From assembly GCA_965215885.1 (NCBI GenBank), contig CBDCEW010000103.1:128001-192000 (forward strand): a stretch of DNA of 64,000 nt, written 5' to 3'. This DNA comes from Candidatus Moanibacter sp. (GTDB taxonomy: Bacteria; Verrucomicrobiota; Verrucomicrobiia; Opitutales; UBA2987). Numbering within the stretch: the first letter of the stretch is position 1; the number at the start of each line of letters is the position of its first letter. Of the stretch, positions 3,229 to 58,518 are shown in pieces. Position numbers and translations under genes: made by a program. The notes under the pieces were generated by a model that was not told the origin of the DNA, ran no database searches, and saw only the letters and a program-made list of their open reading frames with translations.

Positions 3229-3479
3229 AATTCTTTCCTCTTTCTCTCCGTTTTCCTCTGTTTCTCCCGGCGCGCCGGGATTCAACGTTCTTGATCCGTT
3301 GCCAATCCTTCTTCATTGATTCCGCAGTTTTCCCTGGCACGGCGCAGCGCAGCGAAGACGGCTCGAATCCGTGGTCATTTCTTCTTCATCCGCGTGCATC
3401 TGCGGTTCTCTTCTTCTTTTTTGGTTGCCCGTTCGAGAGCCTCAGGGGCGTGAGTCTGTCGCAGGACGGCTACGCTGCG

Positions 3480-4324
3480 CTAGCCCGGACATTTCACACA
3501 CTTCGTAGCGAGACGGCGTAGATCGCTGCGTGTCAATGCCTTTCCGAAGCACGGCAGGCGACAGTGTGTTAAGACCCTCTGAGGTCGCCGGGCAAGGGAA
3601 GGCATTGACACGCGGTGAGATCCGTCGTCGTAGAAGCAGATTTGGTCGCGGTAGGAATCCCCGTCGCCGGGGACCCCCCGCACAGATCCCGGCGAGCGGA
3701 ATTACCGCACCGGGCTCCTCCCTCGGGTATTAACGCGCAAGCGTACTGTGCCGCTCGCCGTATCCTCGCCTGCGCTTGTGACAAGCTTTCCCGGTCCTGT
3801 GTCCGGCGGTTGGTTTGCTCTTGAGGATTCCCCTTGGGCAGGTCCCTTTCCTCCAGCGACTCCGCCAACAGTGCCGCAGCACCATCTTTGTTCGCCGCCT
3901 TCTTCGGTACTACGGACCTGTCCGACTGCCGTGGACCGTTCATCACCGCATTACTCCTTGGATTCGCGGTGCCGACAACGCTGCTTTGCGCTGCCAGCCC
4001 TCGGCTCTCCCGATTCCCGCTCAGTAAGCTTCCTTGCATGCCCCGCTCTCCGACCGCGCAGAGGCCGGACGGCTCTTCGTCTTTGCGACCCGTCCGATTT
4101 TGCCTTCCCCATATTTCAAGAAGGTCGGCCCTCCAAACCTTGCCCAACTTTCGCGGCTCAATCACCCAGCCTGCATCTTCCCCTGTCAACGCTTGCAGCA
4201 TACCCTCTCAGATATACCGCCATGACTCGGGGCCAGTACGATTGGCTAGTTCTTTACTGTATGACTCTTTCATTCACTACTTACTGCCGGTTTTAATCGG
4301 CGCTGTCTGAAATGTTCGGGCTAG
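3480..4324. mobile_element. 182-bp MITE (CTAG-ended TIRs) interrupted by a group II intron
   Basis: Ends are CTAGCCCGGACATTTCA and TGAAATGTTCGGGCTAG. Segments 3480-3644 plus 4308-4324 total 182 bp and are colinear with the uninterrupted copy at 28622-28803. Confidence 0.88.
3645..4307 (-). ncRNA. ORF-less (RT-deleted) group II intron, IIB-like
   Basis: Minus strand shows domain V GAGCCCGGTGCGGTAATTCCGCTCGCCGGGATC and domain VI with a bulged A ending CCTACCGCGAC. Domain I motifs include GCGTTGACAGGGG, GAGCCGCGAAA and GCCGAC..GAAGGCAA. An IEP N-terminal remnant (MNGPRQSDRSVVPKK..KGN..RTQ..RIRRAA) is fused directly to the IEP C-terminal tail. Confidence 0.92.
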
Positions 4325-13750: not shown

Positions 13751-13823
<73 letters not shown>

Positions 13824-28621: not shown

Positions 28622-28803
28622 CTAGCCCGGACATTTCACACACTTCGCAGCGAGACAGCGTAGATCGCTGCGTATCAGAGCCTTTCCGCAAGTCGGCGGG
28701 CGACAGTGTGTTGGAACCCTCTGAGGTCGCCGAGCAAGGGAAGGGGTTGAGACGCAGTGATATCCGCGGTCGTAGCAGAAGGTTTGTGAAATTTTCGGGC
28801 TAG
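28622..28803. mobile_element. 182-bp MITE, intron-free allele
   Basis: CTAGCCCGGACATTTCAC ... GTGAAATTTTCGGGCTAG. Colinear with 3480-3644 plus 4308-4324. Confidence 0.88.
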
Positions 28804-56091: not shown

Positions 56092-57459
56092 CTAGAACCT
56101 CTTCATCTCCGAATGGCCGACAGTGTAGCGGGTGCCGGCCAGGGGCACCTCTGCCATCGCTGAAGCTTCCATTGTGAGCGCTGCTAAATCTTCCGGTTCC
56201 AGCGAATGAATGTTCGTCTTGCCGCAAGCCCTCGCCAACATCTGGCACTCGATCGTAAGGGTGTGCAGGAAGTTGAATACGCGCTCCGCCGCTTCGTCGG
56301 GGTTCAGGCGCTTCCGCAGTTCCGGATCCTGGGTAGCCACTCCCACAGGACACAGTCCCGTGTGACAATGATAACAGTATCCGGCAGGGACACCGACCGT
56401 CCCTTCATAGTCGGCTTCCTGGATGTCCTTGTTGCAATTGAGCGCAACCATCGCAGCTGTCCCGATCGCGATCGCATCCGCTCCAAGTGCCAGCGCTTTT
56501 GCCACGTCGCCGCCATGCCGGATCCCTCCGGCGTAAACGAGAGAAATCTCGCCCGACTTTCCAACGTCCTCAAGAGCATGTCTCGCCTGACGAATTGCCG
56601 CGATACCGGGTATGCCGGTCTCTTCCGTCGCCAGGTGCGGGCCCGCTCCCGTCGAACCCTCCATGCCATCGATGTAAATACTGTCAGGGCCCGTTTTGGC
56701 CGCCATGCGGACGTCGTCGTATACGCGGGCAGCACCCAGCTTGAGTTGTATCGGCACTTCTCCGTTGGTCGCCTCCCTGATCTCGTCGATCTTAAGAGCG
56801 AGATCATCCGGGCCCAGCCAATCCGGATGACGGGCCGGTGATCGCTGATCGATTCCCGCCGGCAATGATCGCATCTCTGCCACCTGATCGGTTACCTTCT
56901 GCCCCATCAGATGGCCGCCCAACCCAACTTTGCACCCCTGCCCGATGAAAAATTCCACCGCATCGGCTACCTGCAGATGATGCGGATTGAATCCGTAACG
57001 TGACTGGATGCACTGATAGAGCCATTTGCTCGAATAGCGGCGCTCGTCCGGGAGCATGCCACCTTCTCCGGAACAGGTTGCCGTCCCCGCCATCGTCGCC
57101 CCACGGGCTAACGCGACCTTCGCCTCGTAGGAAAGAGCGCCAAAGCTCATCCCCGTAATATAGATCGGAATGTCCAGCTCCAGAGGACGTTTAGCTTTGG
57201 GCCCCAATACCGTTTTTGTCTCACACTTCTCGCGATAACCTTCGATTACAAATCGGGTCAGCGTACCGGGCAGAAAAGTAAGGTCATCCCAGGAGGGTAT
57301 CTTCTTGAAGATCGCCATACCGCGCATGCGGTATCGGCCCATCTCCGCTTTAATATGGATATCGTCGATAACCTCGGGGGAAAAGAGATAGTTTCTACCC
57401 AGGACATGCTTATTCCGCTGTCTTCCGCCATCAGCTGCCGTGATATTTTCTACTGCCAT
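56092..57459 (-). CDS. mgsC: N-methylglutamate synthase FMN-binding subunit (GlxD-like)
   Basis: MSFGALS, SGEGG, GQGCKVGLGGHL, RSPARHPD and CYHCHTGLCPVGVATQ. Confidence 0.88.
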   Translation of the reverse strand: MAVENITAADGGRQRNKHVLGRNYLFSPEVIDDIHIKAEMGRYRMRGMAIFKKIPSWDDLTFLPGTLTRFVIEGYREKCETKTVLGPKAKRPLELDIPIYITGMSFGALSYEAKVALARGATMAGTATCSGEGGMLPDERRYSSKWLYQCIQSRYGFNPHHLQVADAVEFFIGQGCKVGLGGHLMGQKVTDQVAEMRSLPAGIDQRSPARHPDWLGPDDLALKIDEIREATNGEVPIQLKLGAARVYDDVRMAAKTGPDSIYIDGMEGSTGAGPHLATEETGIPGIAAIRQARHALEDVGKSGEISLVYAGGIRHGGDVAKALALGADAIAIGTAAMVALNCNKDIQEADYEGTVGVPAGYCYHCHTGLCPVGVATQDPELRKRLNPDEAAERVFNFLHTLTIECQMLARACGKTNIHSLEPEDLAALTMEASAMAEVPLAGTRYTVGHSEMKRF

Positions 57460-57514
57460 GACTCTCTCGTTACTTTATGTTTTCGTCCAAGGTAGAGTTC
57501 CTCTTTGCAATTTC

Positions 57515-57608
57515 TTGTCATTGCGAGGAGGAACGACGAAGCAATCCAGGATCCCGAAACGCTGAGAGGCTGGATTGCCACTCCCGCTCCGCGGGATCGC
57601 AATGACAA
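57515..57608. repeat. Palindromic REP/RPE-like element
   Basis: TTGTCATTGCGA..GCAATCCAG..CTGGATTGC..TCGCAATGACAA. Confidence 0.8.
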
Positions 57609-57657
57609 TGAGTGATGTGAACCCATCCGGTTAGACGCACTGTTAGTACCCCGAAAT

Positions 57658-58518
57658 TCACAATACGATCTTCTTCTCCGCCGGCTCCAGTTTATCGTAA
57701 TTCCACAGCCGTTTTCCGGATACGATTTTCTGTAGATTCATCACGCCGTTCGGCGCTTCGAGATTATACTGCGCCAGCTTTCGCTCCATCCAACTGATCT
57801 CGAGCTCAGTCAATTCTCCGGGCACGGCATCCACCCCCAACGATTTGATTCTTCCGCCGACGTAGATTGTGCCGTCATACATCGAATCGCCCAGATTCTC
57901 GTCCGCATCTCCCAATACGATCATGCGCCCCCGTTGCATCATAAAGCCGGAGAGTGTTCCGGTGCGACCGCCCACGATTATCGTGCCACCCTTCATATTA
58001 ATTCCGGTCCGGCTACCCACATCGCCTCGGCAGACTAGATCTCCCCCGCGAATGGCAGCCCCGAAACAGGAACCGGCGTTCTTCTCCACCAAGACGGTAC
58101 CCGACATCATATTCTCGGCGCAGGACCAGCCTACGCGTCCACTAATCCTAACGTTAGGCCCATCGAGCAATCCGACGCCGAAGTAACCGAGCGACCCTTC
58201 AAATTCGAGCGTCAAACGGTTCAATATGCCGACTCCCAGGGAGTGCCGAGCGTTGGGATTGCGCACCACAATGTGCCCGTATCCCTCCGACATCAAAGCG
58301 CGGATCCTCGCATTCACTTCGCTGAACGACAGATCGCCGGCATCGATTTCGGAGCGCTTTTTCAAATCGCCTTCAAAACTATCGGGATAGAAGAAATTCT
58401 CCTCCGTCTCCGGTGCAAAGAAGTGCTTATGTTCCCTTCCGGAAAGCGACTCATCGTGCATTCCCATTTCATGGGATCTGCCTGTCGTATTACTGTTCAT
58501 CTGTTTCAATTCTGCCAA
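57658..58518 (-). CDS. mgsB: N-methylglutamate synthase GXGXG subunit (GlxC-like)
   Basis: GXGXG beta-helix: AENMMSG, GINMKGGTIIVGG and LGDSMYDG. Confidence 0.85.
   Translation of the reverse strand: MAELKQMNSNTTGRSHEMGMHDESLSGREHKHFFAPETEENFFYPDSFEGDLKKRSEIDAGDLSFSEVNARIRALMSEGYGHIVVRNPNARHSLGVGILNRLTLEFEGSLGYFGVGLLDGPNVRISGRVGWSCAENMMSGTVLVEKNAGSCFGAAIRGGDLVCRGDVGSRTGINMKGGTIIVGGRTGTLSGFMMQRGRMIVLGDADENLGDSMYDGTIYVGGRIKSLGVDAVPGELTELEISWMERKLAQYNLEAPNGVMNLQKIVSGKRLWNYDKLEPAEKKIVL

What the first reader, a model, noticed from the sequence alone, without database searches (positions are those of the whole stretch)
3480..4324. ORF-less group II intron that homes into the terminal inverted repeat of a MITE; both filled and empty alleles are in the window
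Seen: removing 3645-4307 restores exactly the 182-bp element found at 28622-28803. The insert has group II domains V and VI but no RT. The loop of stem CCTTC..GAAGG (minus strand, about 4103-4124) contains UGAAAU (4113-4118), the exact complement of the last six 5'-exon bases AUUUCA in the MITE TIR, i.e. EBS1/IBS1. UUGGGC (4142-4147) can pair with GCCCGA further upstream in the TIR as a candidate EBS2/IBS2. Established: group II introns choose targets by EBS-IBS pairing, and ORF-less copies can be mobilised in trans. Inference: this is a parasite of a parasite, since each MITE offers two ATTTCA|C sites. The outer 17 bp of the TIR stay intact, so the 845-bp composite may also move as DNA using the cognate transposase.
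Basis: partly seen in the sequence, partly recalled or inferred. Interest (0 to 1): 0.85.

Follow-up and report, generated by a model that had tools for sequence, protein, structure and literature searches.

The report
Gene-less intron homing into mini-transposon ends
A 663-base self-splicing-type (group II) intron that has lost its own enzyme gene sits at exactly the same spot near the end of four different copies of a small repeated jumping element, guided there by RNA-DNA base pairing: a clean example of a habit already documented in bacteria.

Summary
Window 4307..3645 (minus strand) is a 663-nt ORF-less group II intron (Rfam RF02005, 168.7 bits). It lies 17 bp inside one end of a ~182-bp MITE-like repeat that has 141 near-full copies in this genome.

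All 4 full-length intron copies in the genome sit at this same site, in four different MITE copies. The introns are 662-663/663 identical, but their host MITEs are only 82-90% alike. So the intron moved by itself, not as a MITE-intron composite.

Both covary with the target in relatives:
- A same-family genome (G006) carries the RT-encoding version in the other end of the same MITE, with UGAGAU pairing AUCUCA.
- A same-order genome (G045) has full and ORF-less versions retargeted to the end of a MITE with an unrelated terminal sequence.

This assembly has no cognate RT; the best match is 43% identical.

The kind is known. RmInt2 homes into the ISRm17 inverted repeats, and the TeI3 ORF-less introns are mobilised in trans. 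This scan has also noted similar intron-in-MITE cases on other DNA.

New here are the pairing of two non-autonomous elements, the retargeting between genomes, and a non-canonical 5' end (GAYAGCG).

The parts
3645..4307 (-). ORF-less group II intron, 663 nt (5' GACAGCG ... CCUACCGCGAC 3')
   Evidence: RF02005 at 168.7 bits. Insertion boundaries come from comparison with the empty copy. There are 4 copies in the genome. The comparative fold gives six domains.
4301..4307 (-). Unpaired 5' terminus GACAGCG, non-canonical (not GUGYG)
   Evidence: G006 and G045 relatives have GAUAGCG. Among 68 aligned 5' ends of relatives, 14 are GANAGCG and 38 are canonical GUGYG aligned to positions 3-7.
4010..4300 (-). 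Domain I
   Evidence: RNAalifold consensus of 4 sequences. The closing helices show compensatory changes at columns 11/297, 12/296 and 22-25/285-288. RF02005 covers 4044-4268.
4113..4118 (-). EBS1 (UGAAAU) in the loop of hairpin 4107-4124
   Evidence: Loop position in the Rfam alignment and in the fold. It covaries with IBS1 in G006 and in two G045 copies.
4142..4147 (-). EBS2 (UUGGGC) in the internal loop 4136-4151
   Evidence: G006 has UCGGGC pairing GCCCGG, and G045 has AGUUA pairing UAACU at the same loop position.
4308..4313 (-). IBS1 (AUUUCA), the last six bases of the 5' exon, inside the MITE terminal repeat
4316..4321 (-). IBS2 (GCCCGA, positions -14 to -9)
   Evidence: It pairs with EBS2 as U-A, U.G and four G-C pairs.
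3924..4009 (-). Domain II
3839..3920 (-). Domain III
3720..3838 (-). Domain IV, with the site of the ORF deletion. In G006 about 1.27 kb encoding the RT lies between intron positions 558 and 564.
3746..3943 (-). Remnant of the first 66 codons of the intron-encoded protein; no RT domain
   Evidence: 61/88 identical to residues 36-123 of the G006 ORF. No Pfam family found.
3684..3718 (-). Domain V, with the AGC triad; a G.A pair replaces the usual G.U, as in relatives
   Evidence: RF00029 alignment. Compensatory G-C to U-A change at columns 682/703.
3647..3682 (-). Domain VI, with an unpaired A at 3652, 8 nt from the 3' end (predicted branch point)
   Evidence: Four pairs show compensatory changes.
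3480..3644 (+). Host MITE copy, positions 1-165 (left terminal repeat CTAGCCCGGACATTTCACACAC plus the palindromic body). This is the 3' exon on the intron strand.
   Evidence: 85.5% identical to 28622-28786. The internal long hairpin at 3524-3617 was picked up as a spurious miRNA-like hit.
4308..4324 (+). Host MITE copy, last 17 bp (right terminal repeat, TGAAATGTTCGGGCTAG). This is the 5' exon on the intron strand.
28622..28803 (+). Uninterrupted 182-bp copy of the same MITE family
   Evidence: It is one of 141 near-full-length copies.

Best explanation
Window 4307..3645 (minus strand) is a non-autonomous, ORF-deleted group II intron of IIB-like structure. It entered this site by retrohoming. 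The excised intron RNA, held by a reverse transcriptase/maturase supplied in trans, recognises the top strand of one MITE terminal repeat by base pairing: EBS1 UGAAAU with AUUUCA, and EBS2 UUGGGC with GCCCGA. It reverse-splices between ATTTCA and CAAA and is then copied into DNA.

The related intron-encoded proteins lack an endonuclease domain. Priming is therefore inferred to come from replication-fork DNA, as in other En-minus introns.

Shown: intron identity, six-domain fold, exact and repeated insertion site, EBS/IBS complementarity with covariation, origin by ORF deletion from an RT-encoding relative, and movement independent of the host MITE.

Inferred: splicing competence, present-day activity, and which protein mobilises it. 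The helper is either a cognate G006-type protein from a copy missing from this 90%-complete assembly or from a co-resident relative, or, less likely, the 43%-identical protein of the resident intron on contig C37.
For: Intron identity:
- RF02005 scores 168.7 bits against a gathering score of 49.
- RF00029 aligns full-length and ends at the junction.
- The comparative fold of 4 sequences gives 190 pairs, 47 with compensatory changes, in six domains.

Site specificity:
- 4 of 4 full copies (C103, C91, C49, C90) share identical junctions inside MITE ends with different outer flanks.
- 4 of 83 GCCCGAACATTTCA sites are filled, against 0 of 120 GCCCGGACATTTCA sites.

Independent movement: introns are 663/663, 662/663 and 662/663 identical, while their host MITEs are 169/187, 153/182 and 154/187 identical.

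Guide-target covariation:
- G000: UGAAAU pairs AUUUCA.
- G006: UGAGAU pairs AUCUCA.
- G045 full copy: AAUGGU pairs GCCAUU.
- G045 ORF-less copy: AAUGUU pairs GACAUU.
- EBS2: UUGGGC pairs GCCCGA, UCGGGC pairs GCCCGG, and AGUUA pairs UAACU.

Origin:
- The G006 relative is 89-91% identical in its RNA parts and carries about 1.27 kb in domain IV. This encodes a group II RT/maturase (TIGR04416, 348 bits against a cut-off of 300; no endonuclease family reported).
- The window intron keeps only 66 N-terminal codons of that protein.
- The G006 copy sits at position 17|18 of the same MITE family, at the other end.

Possible helper: in the run holding most of the window's words (X17, share 0.85), a 1351-nt contig identical to the G006 RT-coding segment is present at depth 2, alongside the ORF-less joint at depth 10.4. 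Run X19 holds an 89%-identical RT-coding contig at depth 17.8 and an ORF-less joint at depth 157.7.

Precedents: RmInt2 in the ISRm17 inverted repeats (PMC4615759, passages) and the TeI3 ORF-less introns mobilised in trans (PMC2882425, passages).
Against: - No cognate RT in the assembly. The best tblastn matches to the G006 protein are 43% (C37) and 33% (C92). The genome is a draft: 105 contigs, 90.3% complete, 5.47% contamination.
- The depth-2 RT contig in X17 could belong to another organism in that sample.
- The 5' end is GACAGCG, not GUGYG.
- RF00029 is below its gathering score (32.1 against 40).
- Domain V has G.A where most introns have G.U. This is shared with relatives, however, so it is not a private defect.
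- No RNA data were examined, so splicing is unproven.
- Only 4 of 83 exact sites are filled.
- One decayed fragment (G000 C94:91074-91275; intron positions 4-130 plus 474-555; 82-84% identical; no domain V) has no recognisable MITE flank.
Confidence: 0.85

Rival explanations
1. The 845-bp MITE-plus-intron composite spreads as DNA, cut and pasted by the MITE's transposase acting on the intact outer ends. This would be an IStron-like chimera.
For: The outer 17 bp of the interrupted end and the whole other end are intact. IStrons show that ribozyme-transposon chimeras exist (PMC4227781; search listing and start of abstract only).
Against: The three best copies have 662-663/663 identical introns but host MITEs only 82-90% identical, and differences begin 5-8 bp from the junction. 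No two filled copies share a backbone. No transposase with matching ends was found in G000.
Confidence: 0.03
2. The intron spread among MITE copies by homologous recombination or gene conversion between filled and empty repeats, not by reverse splicing.
For: The intron is flanked by repeated DNA, 165 bp on one side.
Against: Only 17 bp of homology lies on the 5' side. The flanking MITE sequence is not co-converted, since it differs from +5 to +8 onward. Conversion does not explain why EBS1 and EBS2 change together with the target in G006 and G045.
Confidence: 0.04
3. The copies are recent relics and the intron is now stranded. The cognate RT-encoding master has been lost from this organism, and the two resident introns (C37, C92) cannot mobilise it.
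For: No protein more than 43% identical to the G006 RT is encoded in the assembly. [quoted passage not shown] Only 4 of 83 perfect sites are filled.
Against: Three copies are identical or differ by 1 nt, so the spread is very recent. The assembly is incomplete. An RT-coding contig identical to G006's is present in the best-holding run.
Confidence: 0.25
4. The helper is the heterologous RT/maturase of the resident intron on C37 (same Rfam D1 type, 46 bits), acting as a relaxed-specificity 'driver' protein.
For: The C37 protein is a group II RT/maturase (TIGR04416, 322.8 bits). It is the closest relative of the G006 protein in G000, at 43% over 431 residues. Driver proteins are documented in T. 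elongatus (PMC2882425).
Against: 43% identity is far below the similarity among proteins shown to cross-mobilise. Even closely related RmInt1-type proteins only partly support each other's introns (PMC4615759). I could not define the boundaries or the domain IVa of the C37 intron.
Confidence: 0.1

Closest known systems
RmInt2 of Sinorhizobium meliloti GR4, homing into the inverted repeats of ISRm17 (PMC4615759; passages read)
   Same: An En-minus group II intron whose copies all lie within the inverted repeats of a transposable element. There are two potential sites per element on opposite strands, recognised by EBS1/2-IBS1/2. Head-to-tail intron copies occur, as also seen here in G045.
   Different: RmInt2 encodes its own RT and targets an autonomous IS. 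Here the intron is ORF-less and the target is a 182-bp non-autonomous repeat with no transposase found. Whether this intron belongs to the same class (D/IIB3) was not tested. Its 5' end is GAYAGCG.
TeI3 ORF-less introns of Thermosynechococcus elongatus, mobilised by TeI4 proteins (PMC2882425; passages read)
   Same: The ORF is removed by a deletion in domain IV that leaves N- and C-terminal remnants. [quoted passage not shown] Mobilisation in trans.
   Different: The TeI3 introns coexist with closely related RT-encoding introns in the same genome. Here the assembly lacks a close one (best 43%). The passages I read did not describe MITE ends as TeI3 targets.
RmInt1 homing into ISRm2011-2 (as described in PMC4615759)
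   Same: An En-minus intron specialised on a multi-copy insertion sequence.
   Different: The RmInt1 target is described there as ISRm2011-2 rather than IS inverted repeats, and the intron is autonomous.
IStrons: group I intron plus IS200/605 chimeras (PMC4227781; listing and abstract start only)
   Same: A ribozyme physically associated with a DNA transposon.
   Different: IStrons move as one unit by the transposase. Here the intron moved without its host MITE. The ribozyme class is also different.
C.te.I1 and fungal rRNA group II introns with altered 5' splice sites (PMC4424553; passages)
   Same: The 5' boundary does not coincide with GUGYG. By alignment, this lineage's end lies 2 nt upstream of where relatives have GUGCG.
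   Different: Those introns splice 1-33 nt upstream and have lost EBS2 or branch-site motifs. Here EBS2 and the bulged A are kept, and the GUGCG itself is changed to YAGCG.

Membership tests
Group II intron ribozyme | Domain I-IV covariance model match | tested here: met
   RF02005 scores 168.7 bits against a gathering score of 49, over model positions 1-225, at 4044-4268 (-).
Group II intron ribozyme | Domain V/VI covariance model (RF00029) at or above the gathering score | tested here: inconclusive
   32.1 bits against 40. It is seen only in the 131-nt search, as a full-length alignment ending at the last intron base, and was not reported. DV and DVI helices carry compensatory changes. The G.A in the triad helix is shared by relatives.
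Group II intron ribozyme | Six helical domains around a central wheel | tested here: met
   RNAalifold on 4 natural ORF-less sequences from 2 genomes gives 190 pairs, 47 with compensatory changes. Domains were mapped.
Group II intron ribozyme | 5' GUGYG | tested here: not met
   The 5' end is GACAGCG, fixed by the empty-site comparison. G006 and G045 have GAUAGCG. Of 68 aligned ends of relatives, 38 have GUGYG, 14 GANAGCG, 11 GAGUGYG and 5 other.
Group II intron ribozyme | 3' AY and a bulged A in domain VI 7-8 nt upstream | tested here: met
   The intron ends ...CCUACCGCGAC. The A at 3652 is unpaired in the consensus fold. Its use as branch point was not tested.
Group II intron ribozyme | EBS1/EBS2 complementary to the 5' exon | tested here: met
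   6/6 pairs for EBS1 and 6/6 for EBS2 (one wobble). Four different EBS1 pairings and three EBS2 pairings are found across G000, G006 and G045.
Group II intron ribozyme | Self- or protein-assisted splicing | not testable with these tools
   No RNA run held the stretch (one search lists 0 RNA rows).
Autonomous mobile group II intron (retroelement form) | RT/maturase ORF in domain IV | tested here: not met
   0 Pfam families in 3 of 3 internal ORFs, and only a 66-codon N-terminal remnant. The feature is met in the G006 relative.
ORF-less intron mobilised in trans (TeI3-like) | A closely related RT-encoding intron in the same genome | tested here: inconclusive
   The best matches in the assembly are 43% (C37) and 33% (C92). 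An RT-coding contig identical to G006's is present at depth 2 in run X17, but its organism of origin is unknown.
ORF-less intron mobilised in trans (TeI3-like) | [quoted passage not shown] | tested here: met
   4 of 4 full copies.
Transposon-inverted-repeat-homing introns (RmInt2-like) | Copies lie within the terminal inverted repeats of a transposable element, and either end is usable | tested here: met
   In G000, 4 of 4 copies lie in the GCCCGAAC-type end. The G006 full copy is at position 17|18 of the other end. The truncated G006 copy lies in a related end, CTAGCCCGCTTTTCTCA.
Transposon-inverted-repeat-homing introns (RmInt2-like) | Class D (IIB3) RNA and protein | not tested
   No comparison with RmInt1 or RmInt2 sequences was made. 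The class of this lineage is unassigned.
MITE (the 182-bp host repeat) | Terminal inverted repeats | tested here: met
   CTAGCCCGGACATTTCACACAC pairs with the reverse complement CTAGCCCGAACATTTCACAAAC, conserved across 141 copies.
MITE (the 182-bp host repeat) | High copy number, small size, no coding capacity | tested here: met
   141 near-full copies. There are 477 end-like hits, and 149 of 185 pairs are 150-199 bp apart. At least 41 matches in G006.
MITE (the 182-bp host repeat) | Target-site duplication | tested here: inconclusive
   TA is present at both ends in 125 of 141 copies, within CTAG in 120 (left) and 117 (right). Adjacent copies share one CTAG. This fits a TA duplication at CTAG targets, which I recall as typical of IS630-type elements. 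No empty genomic site was examined.
MITE (the 182-bp host repeat) | Autonomous element with the same ends | tested here: not met
   None found in G000. The only long pair (C105:184547-186626) is a MITE split by an unrelated, frameshifted IS. Two DDE_3 transposase loci lack these ends. G006 was not searched for one.
IStron-like chimera moving as DNA | The same composite (transposon backbone plus ribozyme) at several loci | tested here: not met
   Backbones are 82-90% identical while introns are 99.8% or more identical.

The most novel reading that the evidence does not exclude
This intron lineage is a specialist hyper-parasite of MITE ends. It follows whichever mini-transposon is abundant in its host by rewriting EBS1 and EBS2.

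- In G000 and G006 it uses both ends of one MITE family and a related second family.
- In a same-order genome (G045) it uses the end of a MITE with an unrelated terminal sequence, in the opposite polarity.
- It has shed its RT gene at least twice, with different deletion breakpoints in G000 and G045.
- It carries a shifted, non-canonical 5' terminus (GANAGCG).

Together with similar cases noted by this scan in other phyla, this would make MITE ends a general but almost undescribed 'safe-haven' niche for non-autonomous group II introns in environmental bacteria.
Probability: 0.5. Interest if true: 0.6.

Novelty: new variant of a known kind. Interest (0 to 1): 0.45.

Why it matters
It is a natural experiment in group II intron retargeting. 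The guide loops EBS1 and EBS2 change in step with the target across three genomes. This is direct comparative evidence for the targeting rule, and a set of natural guide/target pairs for an En-minus IIB-like intron.

It also shows two non-autonomous elements nested in each other, a MITE without its transposase and an intron without its RT. Each depends on a helper encoded elsewhere. That bears on how selfish elements persist in 'safe' multi-copy sites.

Practically, such inserts break MAG assemblies (one copy ends contig C90) and inflate repeat families. The GANAGCG 5' terminus and the G.A pair in domain V explain why standard models (RF00029, GUGYG rules) under-call this lineage.

Tried and rejected
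- Parent transposase of the MITE. End-pair distances show only one long pair, and it is a MITE split by an unrelated frameshifted IS. Two IS630-type (DDE_3) loci have no matching ends. The parent remains unknown, and G006 was not examined for it.
- RF00029 was not reported at 64 kb or at 1 kb. It appeared only in a 131-nt search, below the gathering score.
- (a long degenerate pattern) found nothing because my spacing was wrong. It was replaced.
- One search failed on a coordinate slip and was corrected.
- I could not define the 5' and 3' boundaries or the target of the C37 intron, so its fitness as a helper is untested.
- The intron class (A-F, CL, ML) was not assigned. I found only that relatives' proteins are about 55% identical on many proteobacterial plasmids annotated ltrA.
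- Literature: 'group II intron' + 'ORF-less' + 'MITE' gave 0 papers. With 'miniature inverted-repeat' + 'inserted', 10 papers appeared, none on this judging by title or abstract. With 'MITEs' + 'retrohoming', 3 papers appeared, all irrelevant. So I found no paper describing a group II intron in a MITE end. The library lacks most subscription journals.
- Read laying. In X18 and X1 some bins of the RT-coding region had no cover, and this is not used as evidence.
- Replication-strand bias of insertion, expected for En-minus introns, cannot be tested in a 105-contig draft.
- Mechanical ORFs of 250, 275 and 530 aa end 79-244 nt upstream of 3 of 4 copies on the intron strand. This hints at read-through transcription, but the ORFs were not validated as genes.
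Full report
**Observation**

- On the minus strand the sequence is CTAGCCCGAACATTTCA | GACAGCGCC ... CCTACCGCGAC | CAAATCTGC.
- Removing 3645-4307 (663 bp) from the 845-bp stretch 3480-4324 leaves 182 bp, collinear with the uninterrupted element at 28622-28803.
- That collinear match is 85.5% identical over the first 165 bp.
- The two are therefore paralogous copies of a repeat, not alleles. No base is shared across either junction, so the boundaries are exact.

**It is a group II intron without an RT**

- Rfam RF02005 (group-II-D1D4-6) matches 4044-4268 (-) at 168.7 bits against a gathering score of 49.
- The domain V/VI model RF00029 was not reported in the 64-kb and 1-kb searches.
- In a 131-nt search it aligns over its whole length to 3645-3719 (-) at 32.1 bits, below its gathering score of 40. 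The alignment ends on the last inserted base.
- I folded an alignment of four natural ORF-less sequences, two from G000 and two from G045. It gives 190 pairs, 47 of them with compensatory changes, arranged as six domains.
- Window coordinates of the domains:

| Feature | Window coordinates |
|---|---|
| DI | 4300-4010 |
| DII | 4009-3924 |
| DIII | 3920-3839 |
| DIV | 3838-3720 |
| DV | 3718-3684 |
| DVI | 3682-3647 |
| Unpaired A in DVI | 3652 (8 nt from the 3' end) |

- None of the three ORFs inside the insert hits any Pfam family.
- The minus-strand ORF keeps only 66 codons that match the N-terminus of a relative's intron-encoded protein (61/88 identical over the local alignment).

**The host repeat**

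BLAST against the laid genome (6.36 Mb, 105 contigs, 90.3% complete, 5.47% contamination) gave the following.
- There are 141 near-full-length copies of the 182-bp element.
- A fuzzy search for the end motif gave 477 hits. Of 185 inward-facing pairs, 149 are 150-199 bp apart, 12 are 50-99 bp apart and 3 are about 840 bp apart; the last three are the filled copies.
- The ends are CTAGCCCGGACATTTCACACAC and, as reverse complement, CTAGCCCGAACATTTCACAAAC.
- TA is present at both ends in 125 of 141 copies, inside CTAG in 120 (left) and 117 (right). Neighbouring copies share a single CTAG.
- This fits a TA duplication at CTAG targets, which I recall as typical of IS630-type elements. I examined no empty genomic site.
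- I found no autonomous element with these ends. The one long pair (C105:184547-186626) is a MITE split by an unrelated, frameshifted IS. Two DDE_3 transposase loci lack the ends.
- I therefore call it MITE-like, with its transposase unidentified.

**Site specificity and independent movement**

- The genome holds 4 full-length intron copies: C103 (the window), C91, C49 and C90. The first two are identical (100%), C49 is 99.85% and C90 is 95.3% identical to them. C90 lies 35 bp from a contig end.
- All four have the same junctions inside a MITE end, with different outer flanks.
- Exact empty sites: GCCCGAACATTTCA|C occurs 79 times and GCCCGGACATTTCA|C 120 times. Filled sites are 4 and 0 respectively.
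- If both site types were equally usable, this split would have P = 0.027.
- The three best copies are 663/663, 662/663 and 662/663 identical. Their host MITEs are only 169/187, 153/182 and 154/187 identical.
- So the intron entered already diverged MITEs recently and on its own.
- Three decayed fragments also exist (C94, C5, C100). The C94 fragment (intron 4-130 plus 474-555, 82-84% identical) has no recognisable MITE flank.

**Relatives and covariation**

I searched 60 relatives with the intron DNA.

*G006* (same family, 8.3 Mb) has an RT-encoding version.
- Its RNA parts are 89-91% identical to the window intron, with about 1.27 kb more between intron positions 558 and 564.
- The insert encodes a group II RT/maturase (TIGR04416, 348 bits against a cut-off of 300; RVT_1; no endonuclease family reported).
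- It sits in the same MITE family, of which G006 has at least 41 matches, but in the other end. The junctions are CTAGCCCGGACATCTCA|GATAGCG and CGCGAC|CACACTTCGTAGC, at MITE position 17|18.
- Its EBS1 loop reads UGAGAU, against IBS1 AUCUCA. Its EBS2 reads UCGGGC, against GCCCGG.
- A second, truncated G006 copy lies in a related end, CTAGCCCGCTTTTCTCA|. That end type occurs 8 times in G000.

*G045* (same order) is probably Opitutales, because the record title of locus L044, whose coordinates coincide, says so.
- It has a 68%-identical lineage with both RT-encoding (L020:1477-3410) and ORF-less copies (L012, L029).
- Of 6 copies of this subfamily, 5 follow the 18-mer CTTAACTAAG(C/T)G(C/A)CATT. 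The sixth abuts the 3' end of another copy head-to-tail.
- That 18-mer occurs 141 times in G045, against 2 for the reversed control. It often occurs in inverted pairs about 220-250 bp apart.
- It is part of a roughly 30-bp terminal inverted repeat, GGGGTCAAACCTCAATGGCCCTTAGTTAAG, of a different repeat.
- The G045 EBS1 loops read AAUGGU (target GCCAUU) and AAUGUU (target GACAUU). At the EBS2 position, AGUUA faces UAACU.

Four distinct EBS1/IBS1 pairs and three EBS2/IBS2 pairs are thus all complementary. A perfect 6-mer complement in a 10-nt loop is expected by chance at about 0.001.

The ORF deletions in G000 and G045 have different breakpoints. The ORF was therefore lost at least twice.

**Helper protein**

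- tblastn of the G006 protein against G000 finds only 43% identity (intron on C37; TIGR04416, 322.8 bits) and 33% (intron on C92; RF00029, 55.6 bits; GIIM).
- I laid contigs of four runs on the G006 intron at 80% or more likeness.
- Run X17 holds 0.85 of the window's words. It has a 1351-nt contig identical to the RT-coding segment at depth 2, and the ORF-less joint at depth 10.4. Long contigs in the same run that carry MITE flanks have depths of 2 to 4.8.
- Run X19 has an 89%-identical RT-coding contig at depth 17.8 and an ORF-less joint at depth 157.7.
- So RT-encoding masters co-occur with ORF-less copies in these samples. Whether one is in the window's own genome remains open.

**Unusual features of the lineage**

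- The 5' end is GAYAGCG in G000, G006 and G045, and it is unpaired in the fold.
- In 80 loci found with the protein alignment (proteins 54-65% identical, in many phyla), 68 5' ends could be aligned. Of these, 38 have canonical GUGYG aligned to positions 3-7 of ours, 14 have GANAGCG, 11 have GAGUGYG and 5 are other.
- The lineage therefore has a terminus 2 nt longer, with YAGCG in place of GUGCG.
- Domain V pairs the G of the AGC triad with A instead of U. This holds here and in relatives, which probably explains the low RF00029 score.

**Comparison with what is known**

- Zimmerly and Semper (PMC4424553; passages) state three relevant points. [quoted passage not shown] They nearly always accompany related introns whose proteins may act in trans. 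Nearly all introns have 5' GUGYG.
- Mohr et al. (PMC2882425; passages) describe the TeI3 ORF-less introns. [quoted passage not shown]
- Molina-Sanchez and colleagues (PMC4615759; passages) report that all RmInt2 copies lie within the inverted repeats of ISRm17. This gives two sites per element on opposite strands, and head-to-tail copies can arise.
- The mechanism and the strategy are thus known.
- Three things differ here. Both partners are non-autonomous. The lineage is retargeted between genomes to repeats with unrelated ends. The 5' terminus is non-canonical.
- My three searches for a group II intron in a MITE found no such paper in the held library.
- This scan has itself noted similar ORF-less-intron-in-MITE-end cases in at least five other genomes. 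These are unchecked by me.

**Verdict**

The composite-transposition idea is not supported. Interest is moderate: this is a very clean, well-controlled example of a known kind, with some new twists.

Noticed in passing
G000 C105:184540-186632 and C90:~107700-109500 (outside the window): A roughly 1.9-kb IS with a frameshifted DDE transposase (462 + 167 aa pieces, containing the motif HWSIEN) is nested in the middle of a MITE copy. A second copy lies on C90.
   Followed up: partly
L012:1339-2163, L025:1-220, L044 (G045); L050, L113: Head-to-tail intron copies with no exon between them (...CUACCGCGAC|GAUAGCG...). These appear to be homing events into the 5' junction of an occupied site. The same is described for RmInt2.
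   Followed up: partly
L125, L131, L134-L137 (G045): A second intron subfamily (5' GAAAGCGCCGATTAAAACCGGTGG; mostly about 150-nt 5' fragments) follows GGGTCA(A/G)NC(G/C). This is the outermost part of the same G045 repeat end, on the opposite strand from the main subfamily.
   Followed up: no
68 aligned 5' ends in loci L044-L123: A subclade of this intron class has the 5' terminus GANAGCG (14 of 68), and 11 of 68 have GAGUGYG. This suggests a 5' boundary shifted 2 nt upstream of the usual GUGYG.
   Followed up: partly
G000 C92:~56360-57800 (L007) and C37:~55300-53280 (L006, L009): Two RT-encoding group II introns of other lineages lie in the same genome. C92 has RVT_1 + GIIM and RF00029 at 55.6 bits. 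C37 has RVT_1 and a weak RF02005 hit at 46 bits.
   Followed up: partly
G000 genome-wide; e.g. window 3470-3479 and flanks listed: MITE copies are often flanked by other recurring sequences (cgacagattc, ctacgctgcg, cccgcttttc). A second end type, CTAGCCCGCTTTTCTCA, occurs 8 times, and there are 12 mini-versions of 50-99 bp. The genome is rich in nested small repeats.
   Followed up: no
window 3524-3617: The MITE body is a near-perfect long hairpin, which gives spurious miRNA-family hits on both strands (mir-3927, 30.2 and 24 bits against a gathering score of 90).
   Followed up: no
G000 C87:~89600-91100: A highly repetitive ORF region built of EHPAEPAAE-like units, open in several frames.
   Followed up: no
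window 13751-13823: A tRNA gene (RF00005, 71.7 bits).
   Followed up: no
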